Origin: Pelomyxa schiedti
Taxonomy: Eukaryota > Protista > Evosea
Direction of reading: 5' to 3'
Assembly (NCBI GenBank): GCA_020536535.1
Contig: JAHLWZ010000158.1
Location: 1-64,000, forward strand
DNA length: 64,000 nucleotides
In this document: piece by piece, positions 8,161 through 16,407 of the stretch
Numbering within the stretch: position 1 is the first letter of the stretch
Layout of the letters: every line of letters starts with the position of its first letter
The notes under the pieces: generated by a model
What the model saw: only the letters and a program-made list of their open reading frames with translations
What the model was told of the DNA's origin: nothing
Databases searched by the model: none
Position numbers and translations under genes: made by a program

Positions 8161-10036
8161 ATGGCATCATCGTCGACGTCGACATCGACATCGGCACCAG
8201 GGGTGGTGGCGTGGCGCACGTGCGTGAGGAGGCAGATAGGCACGCTGCTGTGTTGCGCCGCGTCGATCCCCCGCCTCACGGGAGGCGCCCCCGCGGCGCC
8301 CTCGCTGCCGCACCCCCCGCCCCGCTCGCCGTCGGCACCGCTGCCCCTGGTCCCGTCGTTGGCCAACGGGAGCAGCCCCGGCTCCTCGTTGCACCGCGAG
8401 GAGGAGCGAGAGCGGGAGGGGCAGGGGCAGGGGCGAGGGGTGGTGAGGGAGGGGCTGCCGATTGGGGTTGTGCGTGGGGTGCTGGAATGGGCTTACCCCG
8501 CGGTATGACTCACTTGTAGTTATTGTTGCGTTGTGATGATGATTGTTTGTGTGTTGTTTATGGAGTCAGCTTGTTATTGCAATATCCAAAACAATTAATT
8601 AATTTGTTGAGGGGCAGCCACACAGGGTGGGATGGGCAGGGAGTGCTCCTGTTGGTTCTGTCACCACTCCTTCCAAGTGGAGTGAAGTTTTGTCGAGGGC
8701 ACTGGGTGATGCTTCTTCCAAGCCAACTTTCGAGGAAGCTGTCATGGCAACCGGAATGAAGAACCCAATGAAGGTTGGTACTTATTGTTGTGGAAGTTTG
8801 TTTGACAACAAGAACAGGTAATTGAGATGTGCCGGAATATTGTTGATGGAATTCCAGAGAGTGACAGGCATGATAGGGAGGCGTATTGTGCCGTTGCATT
8901 ATACACACTTGATTTGGGGAGAGGTGAGAGCAACCCAAATGCGCTTCTGAACAGGGCAATTTCCGAAGACAATGCCGACCTACTTGCGAAATGGCGCGGT
9001 GTAATTTCTCTTCTCGTTACAGCATTGACTGAAATGCAACCGTGCTTGGTGTTAACCATGTACATTGTTGCCCGCATCAATGTCACGGAAGAGGACAAGG
9101 CGTTGTTTTGGACAACATTCTCGTCAGCAACAACTGGTTTGGGCTGTTTTTTCGGCGTTTATTGAGAAATACCTAGCTAACGACGAAACAGATGTTACAT
9201 TTCTGAAATCCAACTCATTTGAAAACGACCCCAGGGAATCCATTCTCTCTCTTTCAGGTGTTGCCTTTGACTTGACGGAGTTCTCCTCTTCAGGGAAGAA
9301 AGGTTTTCTCTCTTTTTGTCTCTGGCAATAATTTTCACGCAGAACAACCTGACACTGCTGGTTGCTGCCGGCAAACGCAACAGAATTCTTGATTGTTCCC
9401 GGAAGGAAGTACTCCATCATCAGCAGGAGCACGTCATGCAACGCGCTTACACCCATTCTGAACCTGTTTGACACGCACTCCAATTCGCCCCTGACCAAGA
9501 TCCTCAATTCCTCCGGAACCTTCAAACGGACCCGCAAAGAAGTAATCAGTATCAACACCACTGAAACTGGGTGGCTTGTATGTGAGCCGGCAACACCCAA
9601 ATGGGACCCCAGTGCACCCAACGAGGTGAACGTGGAATTCCGGCCCCCAATACACCCCTATTCCCTTGGATTCTACGTTGTCACATTCAAGCTTCCCTGT
9701 GACTACCCGTTCAAGGCACCCATTGTCAAATTCAAAACTCCGATTCTACACCCCAACCTCAACAACCAATTCGGCCTTTGCTGCTGTGACTGCATGCTGC
9801 CGGTTCTAGGAAACCAGTGGATGCCAAACATCACCATCCAGTCAGTGATGAATTCCATATGCAGCTGGATGCAGACAGAAAGTTCATGGACTGAGAATGC
9901 ATGTGGTGGGAGACCAGATATCAGGCAGTTGTACCTCAACAACAAGGCTGAGTTTATGAGACAGGCTGAGAACCATGTAAGACTTCATGCCATACACCCT
10001 CAACTGGAGACTTCGGCTCTGTACTTCAACACATAA
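8161..10036 (+). CDS. Multi-exon fusion: family N-terminal module + degenerate ADP-ribosyltransferase-like domain + ubiquitin-conjugating E2 (UBC) domain
   Basis: UBC motifs: PYSLGFYVVTFKLPCDYPFKAPIVKFKTPILHPN...GLCCCDC...QWMPNITIQSVM. ART-like motifs: AVALYT...LLNRAI...KWRGVISLLVTAL...WTTFSSAT...FDLTEFS...EFLIVPG. GT-AG introns (e.g. 9138-9191) join these in frame. Confidence 0.7.
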
Positions 10037-11815: not shown

Positions 11816-13087
11816 TTATCTGTGAGTTGTCGAAGTTGCTATGGAGGAGGTTACAGTGAAAGTGTATACCTCTGTGGAAAAATCAATTTTGCAGATTGAA
11901 TTGGCACCAGTTGGGCCTGTAACCTCCACAGATTTGCCAATTTTGTAAAATATGCACCCTGAACATGCAATGACAAGATACAGTGACTCATTTGGCCAAA
12001 TGGGCTGAAGAACCCTTAGTGGTTTCATCATCATTGCCCCAGATGAAACGACGTTATTGCAGTCCCAGATTTCAACTGTTTTGTCAACCTTAAAGATACA
12101 GTACGAGAAAGTGCCAAGCCGTGACAGGCACTTCACTTCTGTGGCTAGAAGCTGGCAGGTGCCTGTACTTTCTGCAACTTCCAGCACTGTGCTGTAGGTT
12201 TGGCACTCCAGGTATTCATAAAGGAAAACACGCTCACCATTGGTTCTGTTCAGGACAAGGGTGGTGAGAAACGTTGGCAGCATGCTTCGTGTTACTTCAC
12301 ATGCTGTCTCGCTCAGCACAGTAAGTGTACCTGTGTTGAGGGTCTCTTTGACATCAATCACATTGAAGAAGAGGCGAAAACGGTCTTGACGTGATGTAGA
12401 TGAAGCCAGAACAATCAGTGCTTCATCAGGATCAAAGTTGCTCAATGTGATTGCCTGTAAAACCTTGTCAGGCGTCTTCAGAATGTTGACATCGGCGGTG
12501 GTACACCGCCTTTGAGGCAGTTCCTGGTCTGGGTCTGGAACCTTCGGTACCAGTAAGTCGACAACAGTCAGTGCGCAGTAATCAGGATTGCGCTCGTCGT
12601 CATAGTGCAGCCACCACTTGTGATTCGAGCAATTGTAGTGCTCCGAACCGCTGTTCTCATCAGTGAACAGCAGCCGGGGCTTCTGAGACCCCAAGTGCTT
12701 TAGCGATACACCTTTGGTGTGCCCGGCAGTGTGCGAAATGACCACGAAGGCATCCGGGTCCACCACATCCACGTCGATCGGCAAAACGGTCCATCTAGCA
12801 ACCAGCTCGAGGCCTCTTGTAATGCTCATCAAAGCAGCGGAGACTCCAATTGTGAAGTAGGAGCAGGGTGAGCATGGGAACCCGAGCTGGGCCGAGACAT
12901 CAAACACGACCTCGGTGTCGTGGAGGCACCAGTCCCACAATTGTGAAGTGGTGAGTGGGAGAGACGCGAAGTGGCGTGCCGGGCTCGACGCACCGCATCG
13001 ATTGTGGGATGCCATCATCAATGCCATAAGTTGTTCCCGTGCGTTGAGTTGCATCCCCATCTCCAAAAATGTGTTTGCTGACATCAC
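11816..13087 (-). CDS. Lineage-specific intronless protein, paralog of 6848-8110
   Basis: 423-aa ORF with NAREQLMALMMASHNRCGASSPARHFASLP...LWDWCLHDTEVV, NHKWW, PDEAL, VIDV, EVAE and VEIWDCN blocks shared with the paralog. Confidence 0.8.
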   Translation of the reverse strand: MMSANTFLEMGMQLNAREQLMALMMASHNRCGASSPARHFASLPLTTSQLWDWCLHDTEVVFDVSAQLGFPCSPCSYFTIGVSAALMSITRGLELVARWTVLPIDVDVVDPDAFVVISHTAGHTKGVSLKHLGSQKPRLLFTDENSGSEHYNCSNHKWWLHYDDERNPDYCALTVVDLLVPKVPDPDQELPQRRCTTADVNILKTPDKVLQAITLSNFDPDEALIVLASSTSRQDRFRLFFNVIDVKETLNTGTLTVLSETACEVTRSMLPTFLTTLVLNRTNGERVFLYEYLECQTYSTVLEVAESTGTCQLLATEVKCLSRLGTFSYCIFKVDKTVEIWDCNNVVSSGAMMMKPLRVLQPIWPNESLYLVIACSGCIFYKIGKSVEVTGPTGANSICKIDFSTEVYTFTVTSSIATSTTHR

Positions 13088-13212
13088 TGGATGATTTGAA
13101 TGAGGCGGGGACTATGCAAAGTGTGCGTCGCAAAAGAATTTTGATTGACAACCGCGAGATTTCCGATACTCCCTTTTCCAGTGATTTGAACGGTTACAGA
13201 GAACCTCTGCTG

Positions 13213-15253
13213 ATGAACTGTAAATGCGTAGTCATTGGGGACAGCGTAGGGAGCAAGACAGATTTATTGGTTAGCTATGTGGATGGGGGACTACGTACTG
13301 AATGCCCGACTACCGTTTTTGACAACACGACCAAGACAGTGGCAGTTGATGGCCGGTGTATTGATCTCACTCTATGGGATACATCTGGGCTGGAGGACGC
13401 CCCCAACGTCGTTTGCTTCCTTTCCTCTTCCTTTCTTTTTTCTTTCTATTTCCTTCTTTTTCCAAGACTTTTTGCTTGCACAGAGAGTACTTGCGTACGC
13501 AAGGAACACCAGTGTTTTCATTGTTGTCTTCTCAGTGGGGCACAGACAGTCCTTTGAGAGTGTGAGCAGAGTATTTCACCCTGAAATTACGAAGCACTCC
13601 CCTGAAACTCCCTACATCCTTGTTGGCACAAGAACTGAGTTGGGAGCACGGAGATTAATAACTTATGAGCAAGGTGTTGCCAAAGCCAAAGAGATAAATG
13701 CAGCTAAATACATGGAGTGCTCAGCAGTGACACATGAGGGCGTGAGGGAGGTGTTTGAGGAAGCTGCAAGGTGTGCCAAGGCTTATGAGCAGGAATGCAG
13801 AATCAAACAGTTGGAAGAAGAGGTGAGTGCACTGAAGAAAGAGCTAACTGCATCTTTAAATGGTTGAAATACTCATGTTGCCACCTAACAAATAATCAAA
13901 AAAAAAAGAAGTGAGCACTATCACAGAACGGAACCAAACACTAAACGCAGAGGTTGAGCACTGTATGCTAGACAATGCCTTACTTTAGGTTCTTAATTAA
14001 GATGAAAATAGTGAAAGAGGGAAACATGAACCTTGAGGCCAGATTTTCAGCACTCACTGATGAAATCCAGAAACAACAGGTTTCTCCAAATCAAATTGAC
14101 ACTTAAACTTAATTAAGTGCCCCCTAATACAGAAACAAGTTGAACAAATGATTTCATTGATTCCGGCTGATGTTTCTGACTTCACCTTGGAGAAGCTCCT
14201 CGGAACTGGTGCCAGTGCCGCTGCATTCAAAGTAAGGTTCTCCAACAGCCCTTATCCAGGAAGCACCACAACCACAAGCAAGTCCACCATGGTAATGAAA
14301 GTCCTGTTCAACTGGGAGAGCACTCCAAGGCATACAAGGCTCAGGCAGAAGTACATGGCAGAGTGTGTGATACTATCTTCCATCCCTCCCCATCCAAATA
14401 TTATTCATCCCCTTGGTGCACTGGTCATTCCCAGGTGATTGACCCTCTTCAATCTTCTCAATTTTTTTGACAGGTTGTACTTTGAAGGTTGTCTGATGAA
14501 TTTATTGAGCAGATTCCAGTCACCCAACTGGCTTTTCGTGAAATGGCACTGAACAAGTCACTTGCACTGATCATGCCCTTTGGGGGTATCCCTCTGTCCG
14601 CCTTCCTCCAATCCCTTCTTCACTCTCCCTCTTCTCGACCCCCATGGGATGCAACTCTGAACCTATTCTTACAAGCAGTTAAGGCAGTGCACCACCTTGA
14701 AAACAGCAAGGTCGTTCACAGGTTGCCATTTCTCTCTCACAAGAAACACTCAAAAAAAAAAAGGGACATCAAAGAGGACAATCTGTTGGTGGACCCAGAG
14801 ACACACAAACTGTCTCTGATTGACTTTGGGGAGGCCACACAATGCCGCAAAGCTGACCTTGAAGTGACTGTTGCTGCAGACATGCAACTCTGGGGGAATA
14901 CAGGGACGATGCCCCCAGAGCTGAGTTCACTGCTGAGGACACTCAGGGCCACTGGACCAACACCGTTCTCGTATTCCAAGTGCGATTCCTTTGCAGTTGC
15001 GGTCACGCTCTGGGATGCACTCCTGCCACCAGATAACAAGTTCATTGGGAGCACACTCAACAACAACATGGCCGCATTCACACCCGTCAAGCTATCAAGC
15101 ATGCTCCCGGACCCCCTTGAGTTCTTCCCTCCCTGCCAAGGCACACACAGCCGCCTAGCAACCATGAAAGAGGTCATGATCGCGATGATGGCTCCTGAGA
15201 AACACGCCAGGATGTCCTGCTCGGAGGCCATTCAGTGTCTCTCTTCGTACTGA
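13213..15253 (+). CDS. Rho/Rac-like GTPase - coiled coil - PINK1-like Ser/Thr kinase fusion
   Basis: Rho motifs: KCVVIGDSVGSKT, PTTVFDN, LTLWDTSGLED, KYMECSA. Introns 13863-13908, 13963-14011 and 14080-14132 keep frame into the kinase (LGTGASA, MVMKVLFNW, PPHPNII, HRDIKEDN after removing 14722-14763, IDFG, GNTGTMPPE, YSKCD). Confidence 0.75.
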
Positions 15254-15309
15254 CGTCAGCGCCTTCGCAGAAAACATAATAATAATAAATTTGGCTGAGC
15301 AAACCCACA

Positions 15310-16407
15310 ATGAAGCGACGCAGACGTGAAACCACAGTGAAATCAACATCGATACCTGCCTATACACCTTGTGATGACGTCATCCACAGCACGACACCCT
15401 CCTCGATGTCGTTGCCGCCGTCCTCCTCTCTGGACCAAATGGTTCCTCCCTCAGTCATGGAACTCATTGTTGCTTTCTTATTTTGCCCTCCTTTCCCGAC
15501 TTCATCAACAACAACAGCAACAACAACTTCCTCCCACAAACTTGGCAGGACCAACTGTGTGATCAACTTTGCACTGTGTTCGAGAGCATGCCTTGCTGCG
15601 TGCGATAGGGTCAGCATGACGATGCGTGTGAGGTCGTTCGTGAGGCCATACCTCAGGCTGGTGATGATGACTGGTGACAGGAATGATGACACAGTGTCTG
15701 AAGAGCTTGTGGAGAGGGACAGTGATGATGAGAGGGAGCTGGAGGAAGCCGCTCGCGGGATACGGAAGGCACTGAGGATAAAGAGCTGGGTAAAGGCGGT
15801 GCACAATTCGGTGCTGGTGTCCATGAGGAACAAAGTGCCTCGACACAGTGCTCACTTCATCTCATGTGACGTGAAGGAGTGTGCAAACTGCCAACAGAAC
15901 TGCACTGAAGTTGCACAACAGGGAGAAGCGTGGTTCTTCCCCACAACAGCAGCAACAGCAACAACAAAAGCAGTGGTGAGAAGGGACCAGAGGGTATATG
16001 TGCATATCCTTGGGGAGATGATAATCCCGATGCAAAATGAGGATGACGACGACCGTGAGGAAGAAGAAAACGAACCACATGCCACCGTGTGGTACTGCAT
16101 TGCTGACACTGGGAATGTTCCACAACCACCACCATTCTGGGAGACCAGACTGGAAATGCAAGATCAGATTCAGGTGCTGAGGCAAGAAAGGGATTCAGGT
16201 GCTGAGGCAAGCGCCTTTGCACCCTGGGTCAAAGTGTATGACACATGGAGTGCATACCCGAAACACCTTCTTGATAAACATGCAGAGGAAGTGAGCCAAC
16301 TGGCAGGTGTGGCAGCGTTGTGTGCCCTTGCTGGATTACCAGCAGATCAGGGCAGTAATTTGCTTAAAACTTTGGCAGACGCTGCTGATTGTGCCTGTCT
16401 TCTTTGA
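15310..16407 (+). CDS. Hypothetical intronless protein with an F-box-like N-terminal motif
   Basis: 365-aa ORF. LDQMVPPSVMELIVAFL...VINFALCSRACL resembles an F-box with a low-complexity insert. Confidence 0.55.
   Translation: MKRRRRETTVKSTSIPAYTPCDDVIHSTTPSSMSLPPSSSLDQMVPPSVMELIVAFLFCPPFPTSSTTTATTTSSHKLGRTNCVINFALCSRACLAACDRVSMTMRVRSFVRPYLRLVMMTGDRNDDTVSEELVERDSDDERELEEAARGIRKALRIKSWVKAVHNSVLVSMRNKVPRHSAHFISCDVKECANCQQNCTEVAQQGEAWFFPTTAATATTKAVVRRDQRVYVHILGEMIIPMQNEDDDDREEEENEPHATVWYCIADTGNVPQPPPFWETRLEMQDQIQVLRQERDSGAEASAFAPWVKVYDTWSAYPKHLLDKHAEEVSQLAGVAALCALAGLPADQGSNLLKTLADAADCACLL

What the first reader, a model, noticed from the sequence alone, without database searches (positions are those of the whole stretch)
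13213..15253. Hidden Rho GTPase - coiled coil - PINK1-like kinase fusion
Seen: three consecutive GT-AG introns (46, 49 and 53 nt) bypass the apparent Rho stop at 13867, and all phases match. The result is a continuous heptad linker (...KELTASLNEVSTITERNQTLNAEVEHLKEGNMNLEARFSALTDEIQKQQKQVEQM) leading into a kinase with intact K, HRD and DFG. The kinase shows PINK1-family-like features (MKVLFNW, PPHPNII followed by an insert, GN..TMPPE, YSKCD). There is no CAAX motif. Inference: a GTPase-gated kinase analogous to, but independent of, Roco/LRRK proteins (no COR domain).
Basis: partly seen in the sequence, partly recalled or inferred. Interest (0 to 1): 0.75.

Follow-up and report, generated by a model that had tools for sequence, protein, structure and literature searches.

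The report
Broken Rac fused to PINK1-related kinase
An anaerobic amoeba splices a worn-down Rac-type GTPase, a coiled coil and a kinase related to the Parkinson's enzyme PINK1 into one message; it is one of dozens of sister genes that put different binding modules on the same kinase, and the GTPase part is likely a fixed binding module, not an on/off switch.

Summary
The fusion is real. RNA contigs splice out the three named introns (46, 49, 53 nt) and three more; one contig runs from inside the GTPase exon to the end of the kinase. It is not hidden: an NCBI Pelomyxa schiedti model, 'Rho GTPase', has the same 574 residues plus 33 upstream. The kinase is PINK1-related: PINK1 chains take the top 12 of 60 PDB hits, and trees group it with PINK1 and many insert-bearing kinases. 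It is not PINK1 proper: the Ser228 site is Pro, the Arg that reads it is Leu, and the C-terminal extension is missing. The coiled coil plus kinase is a cassette found in 59 relatives, with ankyrin (13), Sel1 (19), Ras-type (3) or other front ends. The GTPase fusions do not form one clade (AU rejected). The Rac domain carries G15S, F28L, P29R, Q61L, K116R, D118E and lacks the Rho insert, so GTP gating is doubtful. Best reading: a shuffled, catalytically dead Rac-like binding module on a PINK1-superfamily kinase. Not a Roco. Searches found no paper on the family.

The parts
13213..13410 (+). Exon 1: probable start ATG and N-half of the Rac-like domain (G1 to G3). An in-frame ATG at 13114 is used by the NCBI model.
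   Evidence: (Pfam Ras 8.7e-12); RNA cover from 13290 only
13411..13483 (+).
   Evidence: X1 record 1 covers 13290-13410 then 13484-13659 (table 8)
13484..13862 (+). Exon 2: C-half of the Rac-like domain (G4 reads TRTE, Rho insert deleted) running without an intron into the coiled coil; the fusion junction lies here, near 13775-13800
13863..13908 (+). Intron 2, 46 nt; holds the apparent stop TGA 13865-13867
   Evidence: joint in X1 and X2
13909..13962 (+). Exon 3, coiled coil
13963..14011 (+). Intron 3, 49 nt
   Evidence: joint in X1, X2, X3
14012..14079 (+). Exon 4, coiled coil
14080..14132 (+). Intron 4, 53 nt
   Evidence: joint in X1, X2, X3
14133..14434 (+). Exon 5: end of coiled coil; kinase N-lobe with catalytic Lys (14298-14300), PINK1-length beta3-alphaC loop (Thr then Pro where PINK1 has Ser228), start of the insert-3-like loop
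14435..14487 (+). Intron 5, 53 nt
   Evidence: joint in X1, X2, X3
14488..14721 (+). Exon 6: rest of the insert-3-like loop (to about 14554), hinge, alpha-E, start of HRD
14722..14763 (+). Intron 6, 42 nt, in frame without a stop, splitting the HRD motif
   Evidence: joint in X1, X2, X3
14764..15253 (+). Exon 7: kinase C-lobe (DFG, activation segment), stop TGA 15251-15253; no CAAX, no PINK1 C-terminal extension

Best explanation
This is one spliced gene in which a degenerate Rac-like domain sits in front of a coiled-coil-plus-kinase cassette shared by dozens of Pelomyxa paralogs; the domain was likely shuffled in recently and likely acts as a fixed binding module, not a cycling GTP switch. 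Shown: the splicing, the domain order, the shared cassette, the intact catalytic motifs and the substitutions in the GTPase boxes. Inferred: the Rac-like domain cannot hydrolyse GTP and binds it weakly or not at all. It would bind a partner of the Rho system, such as an effector, GEF or GAP, through its partly kept switch I, and so place or cluster the kinase. Inferred with less support: the coiled coil brings two kinases together, which phosphorylate each other in the beta3-alphaC loop (the conserved Thr beside PINK1's site). The insert-3-like loop would then select a folded protein substrate, probably not ubiquitin.
For: Splicing. Cassette: similarity to ankyrin paralog P0005 starts at residue 196, right after the GTPase, at 66% over 424 columns. 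Of 59 family proteins, 19 carry Sel1, 13 ankyrin, 3 Ras-type, 6 single other domains, 18 none recognised. Front-end type is not clustered on the kinase tree (16 changes, shuffled mean 17.5, as low in 34 of 200). One clade is rejected for P0001+P0035 (p-AU 3e-30), P0001+P0008 (0.001), the ankyrin set (1e-4) and the Sel1 set (3e-47). GTPase, by Rac numbering against a canonical Rac: G12S, G15S, F28L, P29R, Y32C, A59S, Q61L, K116R, D118E, and 12 residues of the insert helix missing. Q61L is GTPase-defective, and F28L, P29S and D118N raise exchange, in Rac1/Cdc42 (PMC6678527, passages and Table 1). The second Rho fusion, P0035, is also degenerate (T17R, G60P, Q61I). Both models give one helix from 183 to 273-274. 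Thr at Lys+8 occurs in 51 of 62 motif matches.
Against: K16, T17, T35, F37, D57, G60 and the G5 SA are kept, so GTP-Mg binding may survive. Effects of single mutations in mammalian Rac need not add up in this domain. No partner is known. The GTPase part was modelled poorly (pLDDT under 50 for residues 44-106). All RNA support comes from one sample. No ortholog from a second species was found, so selection on the Rac part could not be measured.
Confidence: 0.5

Rival explanations
1. GTP-gated kinase: the Rac-like domain cycles between GDP and GTP and turns the kinase on in cis or through dimerisation, as a Roco analogue.
For: Mg/phosphate residues K16, T17, T35, D57, G60 are kept. Small GTPase domains were joined to this kinase family three times, which may reflect selection.
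Against: Q61L, G12S, G15S, K116R, D118E, F28L; the other Rho fusion has lost T17 and G60. A helix of about 90 residues separates the domains. Nearest sister kinases carry ankyrin or Sel1 front ends.
Confidence: 0.18
2. Neutral shuffling product: the cassette landed behind a Rac copy, and the Rac part is decaying while the kinase works on its own.
For: Many substitutions at normally invariant sites (47% identity to canonical Rac, 77 of 164). No relative of the GTPase region among 544 candidates of 333-1063 aa. Many family models are truncated or doubled.
Against: The frame is open over the whole domain with intact splicing. Core strands and helices are kept (Pfam Ras 121 bits, profile 1-159 of 162). 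The kinase branch is short (0.12).
Confidence: 0.2
3. Decoy receptor: the dead Rac domain is bait for microbial proteins that target host Rho GTPases, and their binding clusters and activates the kinase, as part of a large, fast-shuffling surveillance repertoire.
For: Repeat-type front ends (ankyrin, Sel1, TPR, LRR, ARM) on one signalling cassette, and frequent swaps. The host lives with several prokaryotic endosymbionts (PMC10579272, search listing only). The integrated-decoy idea is recalled from plant immunity, not from a call.
Against: No ligand, expression response or selection data. Such repeat domains are common in many protist kinases.
Confidence: 0.12

Closest known systems
PINK1 (metazoan ubiquitin kinase; NKF2 family, label recalled)
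   Same: Nearest solved kinase by sequence (top 12 of 60 hits, best 57.4 bits against 44.1 for Pim-1) and by Foldseek (ranks 1-6). Same Lys-to-Glu spacing and Asn at Lys+4; an insert-3-like loop; Asn matching Tc Asn287.
   Different: Pro at the Ser205/228 position, Leu at Tc Arg286, no C-terminal extension, no targeting sequence or membrane helix ahead of the kinase; a Rac-like domain and coiled coil instead. Falls outside the PINK1 clade (100/99).
Roco / LRRK proteins
   Same: A Ras-superfamily domain and a kinase in one chain, GTPase first.
   Different: GTPase is Rac-derived (best PDB hits Rac1/RhoG; Pfam Ras 121 bits against Roc 40). No COR hit; the linker is a coiled coil. The kinase is PINK1-related, not TKL.
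Rac/Rho GTPases, and the atypical or pseudo-GTPase Rho domains (Rnd, RhoH, RhoBTB, p190 pseudoGTPases; names recalled)
   Same: Rac fold and 47% identity to a canonical Rac; lost catalytic Gln61 and Gly12 like the GTPase-deficient atypical members (recalled).
   Different: Rho insert deleted, hypervariable tail and CAAX replaced by a coiled coil, fused to a kinase.
Pelomyxa paralogs P0035 and P0008 (NCBI hypothetical proteins)
   Same: Small-GTPase-like domain ahead of the same coiled coil and kinase.
   Different: GTPase domains share only 57 of 168 and 28 of 139 residues with this one; the kinases do not form a clade with it.

Membership tests
PINK1 proper | Kinase groups inside the PINK1 clade | tested here: not met
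   PINK1 rows form a 100/99 clade of 10 without it. An exclusive sister relation is neither shown nor rejected (p-AU 0.38).
PINK1 proper | Autophosphorylated Ser228 (Tc Ser205) at Lys+9 | tested here: not met
   Pro in this protein and in 45 of 62 family matches (Ser in 5 of 62); Ser in 9 of 9 parsed PINK1 rows, 1 of 10 not parsed; site defined in bioRxiv 2023.03.31.534916 passages.
PINK1 proper | Arg-Asn pair that binds the phosphoserine (Tc Arg286/Asn287) | tested here: not met
   Asn kept, Arg is Leu. Arg in 1 of 39 family matches against 9 of 10 PINK1 rows. Pair defined in bioRxiv 2021.08.05.455304 passages.
PINK1 proper | C-terminal extension and mitochondrial targeting/membrane segment | tested here: not met
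   The last residue (607) aligns to Tc 483 of a construct that runs to 570. The N-terminus is a Rac-like domain. No targeting predictor was run.
PINK1 proper | Phosphorylates ubiquitin Ser65 | not testable with these tools
   Needs an enzyme assay.
PINK1-related (insert-3-bearing) kinase superfamily | Long insert between the HPN motif and beta5 | tested here: met
   Motif span 40-41 residues in 39 family matches and 43-47 in 10 PINK1 rows; absent in the 2 outgroup rows displayed.
PINK1-related (insert-3-bearing) kinase superfamily | Groups with PINK1 to the exclusion of other kinases | tested here: met
   100/99 with 18 outgroup rows; SH-aLRT 99 with all 27 and insert columns dropped. Weaker, 85 with one outgroup row inside, under LG+G4. 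Outgroup is unnamed and not a systematic kinome sample.
Roco / LRRK | Roc domain followed by COR | tested here: not met
   Pfam on P0001 gives Ras, Pkinase, PK_Tyr_Ser-Thr and a weaker Roc match on the same stretch, no COR; only about 75 helical residues lie between the domains. Definition from PMC8923023 passages.
Canonical Rho/Rac switch | Intact G1 (GxxxxGKT), G3 (DxxGQ), G4 (TKxD) | tested here: not met
   G15S, Q61L, K116R, D118E; G2 Thr35 and G5 kept.
Canonical Rho/Rac switch | Rho insert helix and C-terminal CAAX | tested here: not met
   12-residue gap at the insert; the chain ends in LSSY.
Canonical Rho/Rac switch | Binds and hydrolyses GTP | not testable with these tools
   Needs biochemistry.
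Active protein kinase | beta3 Lys, alphaC Glu, HRD, DFG | tested here: met
   K322, E343, H444-D446, D465-G467 in P0001 numbering; K322, E343, H444, D446, D465, F466 and G467 invariant in 24 of 24 aligned paralogs.

The most novel reading that the evidence does not exclude
PINK1, listed as a metazoan innovation, is one offshoot of an old, undescribed eukaryotic family of insert-bearing kinases. Anaerobic amoebae use it as a plug-and-play receptor system: swappable sensor, coiled coil, PINK1-type kinase. This gene is a member that captured a dead Rac as bait or docking module, and the family may still phosphorylate ubiquitin-fold proteins, since two distant members carry a fused ubiquitin-like domain.
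Probability: 0.2. Interest if true: 0.8.

Novelty: new variant of a known kind. Interest (0 to 1): 0.5.

Why it matters
It gives a transcript-supported GTPase-kinase fusion that is not a Roco protein, and shows it is a by-product of a larger pattern. At least 59 Pelomyxa proteins share one PINK1-related kinase, most behind a coiled coil, with exchangeable front ends. Relatives occur in Mastigamoeba, a Trimastix record, Gefionella, a sponge and an octopod. PINK1 has been listed as metazoan-specific (PMC3789837, one passage), and a recent evolutionary study searched metazoans only (bioRxiv 2026.09.05.749644, passages). These non-mitochondrial cousins make a standing question testable: what the insert-3 kinase did before animals tied it to ubiquitin, Parkin and the TOM complex. 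The single gene is a modest finding; the family is the larger lead.

Tried and rejected
Whole-genome paralog scan: no genome is held for this window, so the family count rests on database hits and is a lower bound. Homodimer prediction of residues 205-607: no answer, score 0.11 against a mark of 0.32, alignment not used; not evidence either way. ESM Atlas by features, kinase part and whole protein: only generic kinase clusters, no PINK1 label. VIA-align: PINK1 6eqi ranks first (Z 21.4, rmsd 5.5, 294 aligned) but ties with Syk (Z 21.2, rmsd 3.8, 254 aligned), so Z alone does not single out PINK1. Viral structures: generic kinases only, 12-19% identity. Search for other fusions through the GTPase region: only P0001 itself among 544 candidates of 333-1063 aa; a word-based search, weak evidence of absence. 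Metagenome scan: 1 of 71 pattern matches confirmed, a plain Rac locus L001. Alignment A3 misplaced the Rac rows onto the kinase and was not used for folding. The second fold left the kinase and the N-half of the GTPase unresolved (mean pLDDT 43.9). Earlier scan findings: none. Rejected: two separate genes (the stop is spliced out); a Roco; an orthologue of PINK1; one origin of the GTPase fusions. RNA gives no cover upstream of 13290, so the start codon (13114 or 13213) is open.

Full report
Observation. The window holds a seven-exon gene on the + strand, 13213-15253. All six are GT-AG and give a 574-residue frame. Three RNA runs of one sample hold the stretch. Their contigs skip 46, 49, 53, 53 and 42 nt at these places: the first in 2 of 3 runs, the others in 3 of 3. 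Contig X2-3 runs 13533-15213 and X1-2 runs 13705-15222 without a mismatch; X1-1 bridges intron 1 (the five joints recur). The apparent Rho stop lies inside intron 2. These are assembled contigs from one study, and none spans exon 1 to the kinase. The gene is already modelled: P0001, named 'Rho GTPase [Pelomyxa schiedti]', matches all 574 residues and adds 33 upstream. The ATG at 13213 lines up with the start of Rac1 and seems the likelier start; RNA does not decide it.

Anatomy. Pfam gives Ras at 37-196 (121 bits) and Pkinase at 312-602, a weaker Roc match on the Ras stretch, and no COR. The best PDB matches are Rac1 and RhoG. Residues 201-273 have a heptad reached by 0 of 10,000 shuffles. Both AlphaFold models make 183-273 one helix that starts in the last GTPase helix. 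The kinase keeps Lys322, Glu343, HRD and DFG.

The GTPase is degenerate. Against a canonical Rac from locus L001, and by Rac numbering, it has G12S, A13V, V14G, G15S, F28L, P29R, Y32C, A59S, Q61L, K116R and D118E, and keeps K16, T17, T35, F37, D57, G60 and G5. Twelve residues of the insert helix are missing, and the tail and CAAX are replaced by the coiled coil. In Rac1/Cdc42, Q61L is GTPase-defective and F28L, P29S and D118N raise exchange (PMC6678527, passages and Table 1). That G15 and K116 matter for nucleotide binding is recalled. I infer a domain that does not cycle. RNA confirms the letters at G2, G3 and G4; the P-loop is covered only by DNA run X4, which may not be independent.

The kinase is PINK1-related. 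A single paralog (P0053) finds PINK1 chains as its top 8 of 36 PDB hits. A 14-sequence profile finds them as the top 12 of 60, best 57.4 bits against 44.1 for Pim-1, and the louse chain aligns over both lobes. Foldseek ranks PINK1 first to sixth, with Abl seventh; VIA-align ties PINK1 with Syk. A profile search of 1.84 billion representatives gave 55 hits at 1e-30 and 323 at 1e-10. The best 150 include metazoan PINK1 (3 rows named so by their clusters) and other insert-bearing kinases. Named ones come from Mastigamoeba, a Trimastix record, Gefionella, Sycon and Argonauta; 30 proteins were looked up. One Pelomyxa relative, P0073, already carries the automatic name 'PTEN induced putative kinase 1'.

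Trees. I chose 104 rows; 12 lacked a parsable catalytic motif and were dropped, among them the Mastigamoeba, Sycon and P0073 rows. With 92 rows under LG+G4, the split between insert-bearing kinases and the outgroup had support 85, with one outgroup row inside. With 63 rows (14 redundant family rows and 15 long or redundant rows left out) under the mixture model it was 100/99. With 78 rows, all 27 outgroup rows and the insert columns dropped, SH-aLRT was 99. PINK1 and the Pelomyxa core family are separate clades (each 100/99). Their order is unresolved: an exclusive sister relation has p-AU 0.38, and the Pelomyxa group may branch first (support 10); holding the core family with the outgroup is barely rejected, p-AU 0.043 (38 rows). 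The outgroup is unnamed and I set the groups by motif, so the superfamily needs a test against a named kinome.

It is not PINK1. In the beetle chain (455 residues, taken as a 5-residue tag plus 121-570), the Ser nine places after the catalytic Lys is Ser205, and the Arg-Asn aligned to the family's Leu-Asn is 286-287. Papers define these as the activating site and its reader (bioRxiv 2023.03.31.534916 and 2021.08.05.455304, passages). Here Lys+9 is Pro, as in 45 of 62 family matches; Lys+8 is Thr in 51 of 62; the Arg occurs in 1 of 39 matches. PINK1 rows have Ser in 9 of 9 parsed and Arg in 9 of 10. The chain ends at the equivalent of beetle 483, so the C-terminal extension is absent.

The fusion is one case of module swapping. 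Two searches returned 59 close relatives: 58 named Pelomyxa and one unnamed whose cluster holds a Pelomyxa record. By precomputed Pfam lists, 19 have Sel1, 13 ankyrin, 3 Ras-type, 6 single other domains and 18 none (some models are truncated). A heptad-rich segment precedes the kinase in most of the 42 of 60 proteins where the anchor motif was found (judged by eye). Similarity to ankyrin paralog P0005 begins at residue 196, inside exon 2. Front-end type is not clustered on the kinase tree, and one clade is rejected for each GTPase pair and for the ankyrin and Sel1 sets (28 rows). More distant members add TPR, LRR, ARM, PARP, SPRY and ubiquitin-like domains.

Mechanism. Shown: splicing, architecture, shared cassette, motif states. 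Inferred (0.5): the Rac-like domain is a fixed binding module that places or clusters the kinase; the coiled coil pairs kinases for trans-phosphorylation near the conserved Thr; the insert picks a folded substrate. Rivals: neutral decay of the Rac part (0.2), true GTP gating (0.18), decoy receptor for microbial Rho-targeting proteins (0.12). I put ubiquitin as substrate at about 0.15.

Literature. Seven searches listed no paper on this fusion or family. The genome paper PMC8887013 has 0 hits for 'PINK' and 'GTPase' in its main text, and 0 for PINK terms in the 2 supplementary files held; it reports 7.43 introns per gene, so six introns are ordinary. PMC10711303 has 0 hits for 'PINK', and the Dictyostelium kinome paper PMC1420674 has 0 for 'PINK1'. 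PMC8923023 says most small GTPases consist of the GTPase domain alone, Roco being the exception (passages). PMC3789837 lists PINK1 among metazoan-specific genes (one passage). bioRxiv 2026.09.05.749644 searched metazoans only (passages). PMC10104450 gave nothing relevant. Subscription papers, kinase databases and bioRxiv supplements were not seen and may already note such kinases.

Verdict. Real, spliced, already modelled but undescribed; a new variant of GTPase-kinase fusion inside an expanded PINK1-related family. Interest 0.5.

Noticed in passing
P0148 residues 714-782 and P0111 residues 466-543 (unnamed metagenome proteins): Two PINK1-related kinases carry a fused ubiquitin-like domain. 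Both keep a Ser in an ES-x-LHLV motif, which by recall is the position of ubiquitin Ser65. This hints that the wider family acts on ubiquitin-fold proteins.
   Followed up: partly
P0008 (Pelo_9117) and P0035 (Pelo_2233): Two more small-GTPase plus coiled coil plus kinase fusions of the same family, of separate origin. P0035 has a degenerate Rho domain and a long Ser/Lys-rich spacer of about 500 residues.
   Followed up: partly
P0094 (Mastigamoeba) and P0084 (Trimastix record): ARM-repeat proteins with the same kinase type in two other anaerobic protists, so the sensor-plus-kinase layout is not confined to Pelomyxa.
   Followed up: partly
P0123 (Sycon) and P0154 (Argonauta, ankyrin plus kinase): Animals also hold insert-bearing kinases that score like the non-PINK1 members; P0154 falls outside the PINK1 clade, P0123 was not placed on a tree.
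   Followed up: partly
window 9353-10036 (+): Intronless-looking ORF with a ubiquitin-conjugating enzyme domain (Pfam UQ_con 3.5e-18), 3 kb upstream; no RNA cover in three runs. Adjacency is no evidence of a link.
   Followed up: no
window 11816-13111 (-): 431-codon open frame with no Pfam hit, head to head with this gene and only about 30-150 bp from its possible start codons; partly covered by RNA contigs.
   Followed up: no
window 15289-16407 (+): 372-codon open frame without a Pfam hit, starting within 60 bp of the kinase stop; one RNA contig at 15576-16015.
   Followed up: no
L001 142-717 and 776-1194: Two tandem Rac genes about 60 bp apart on a 1.2 kb AT-rich metagenome contig; the first ends in a CAAX motif.
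   Followed up: partly
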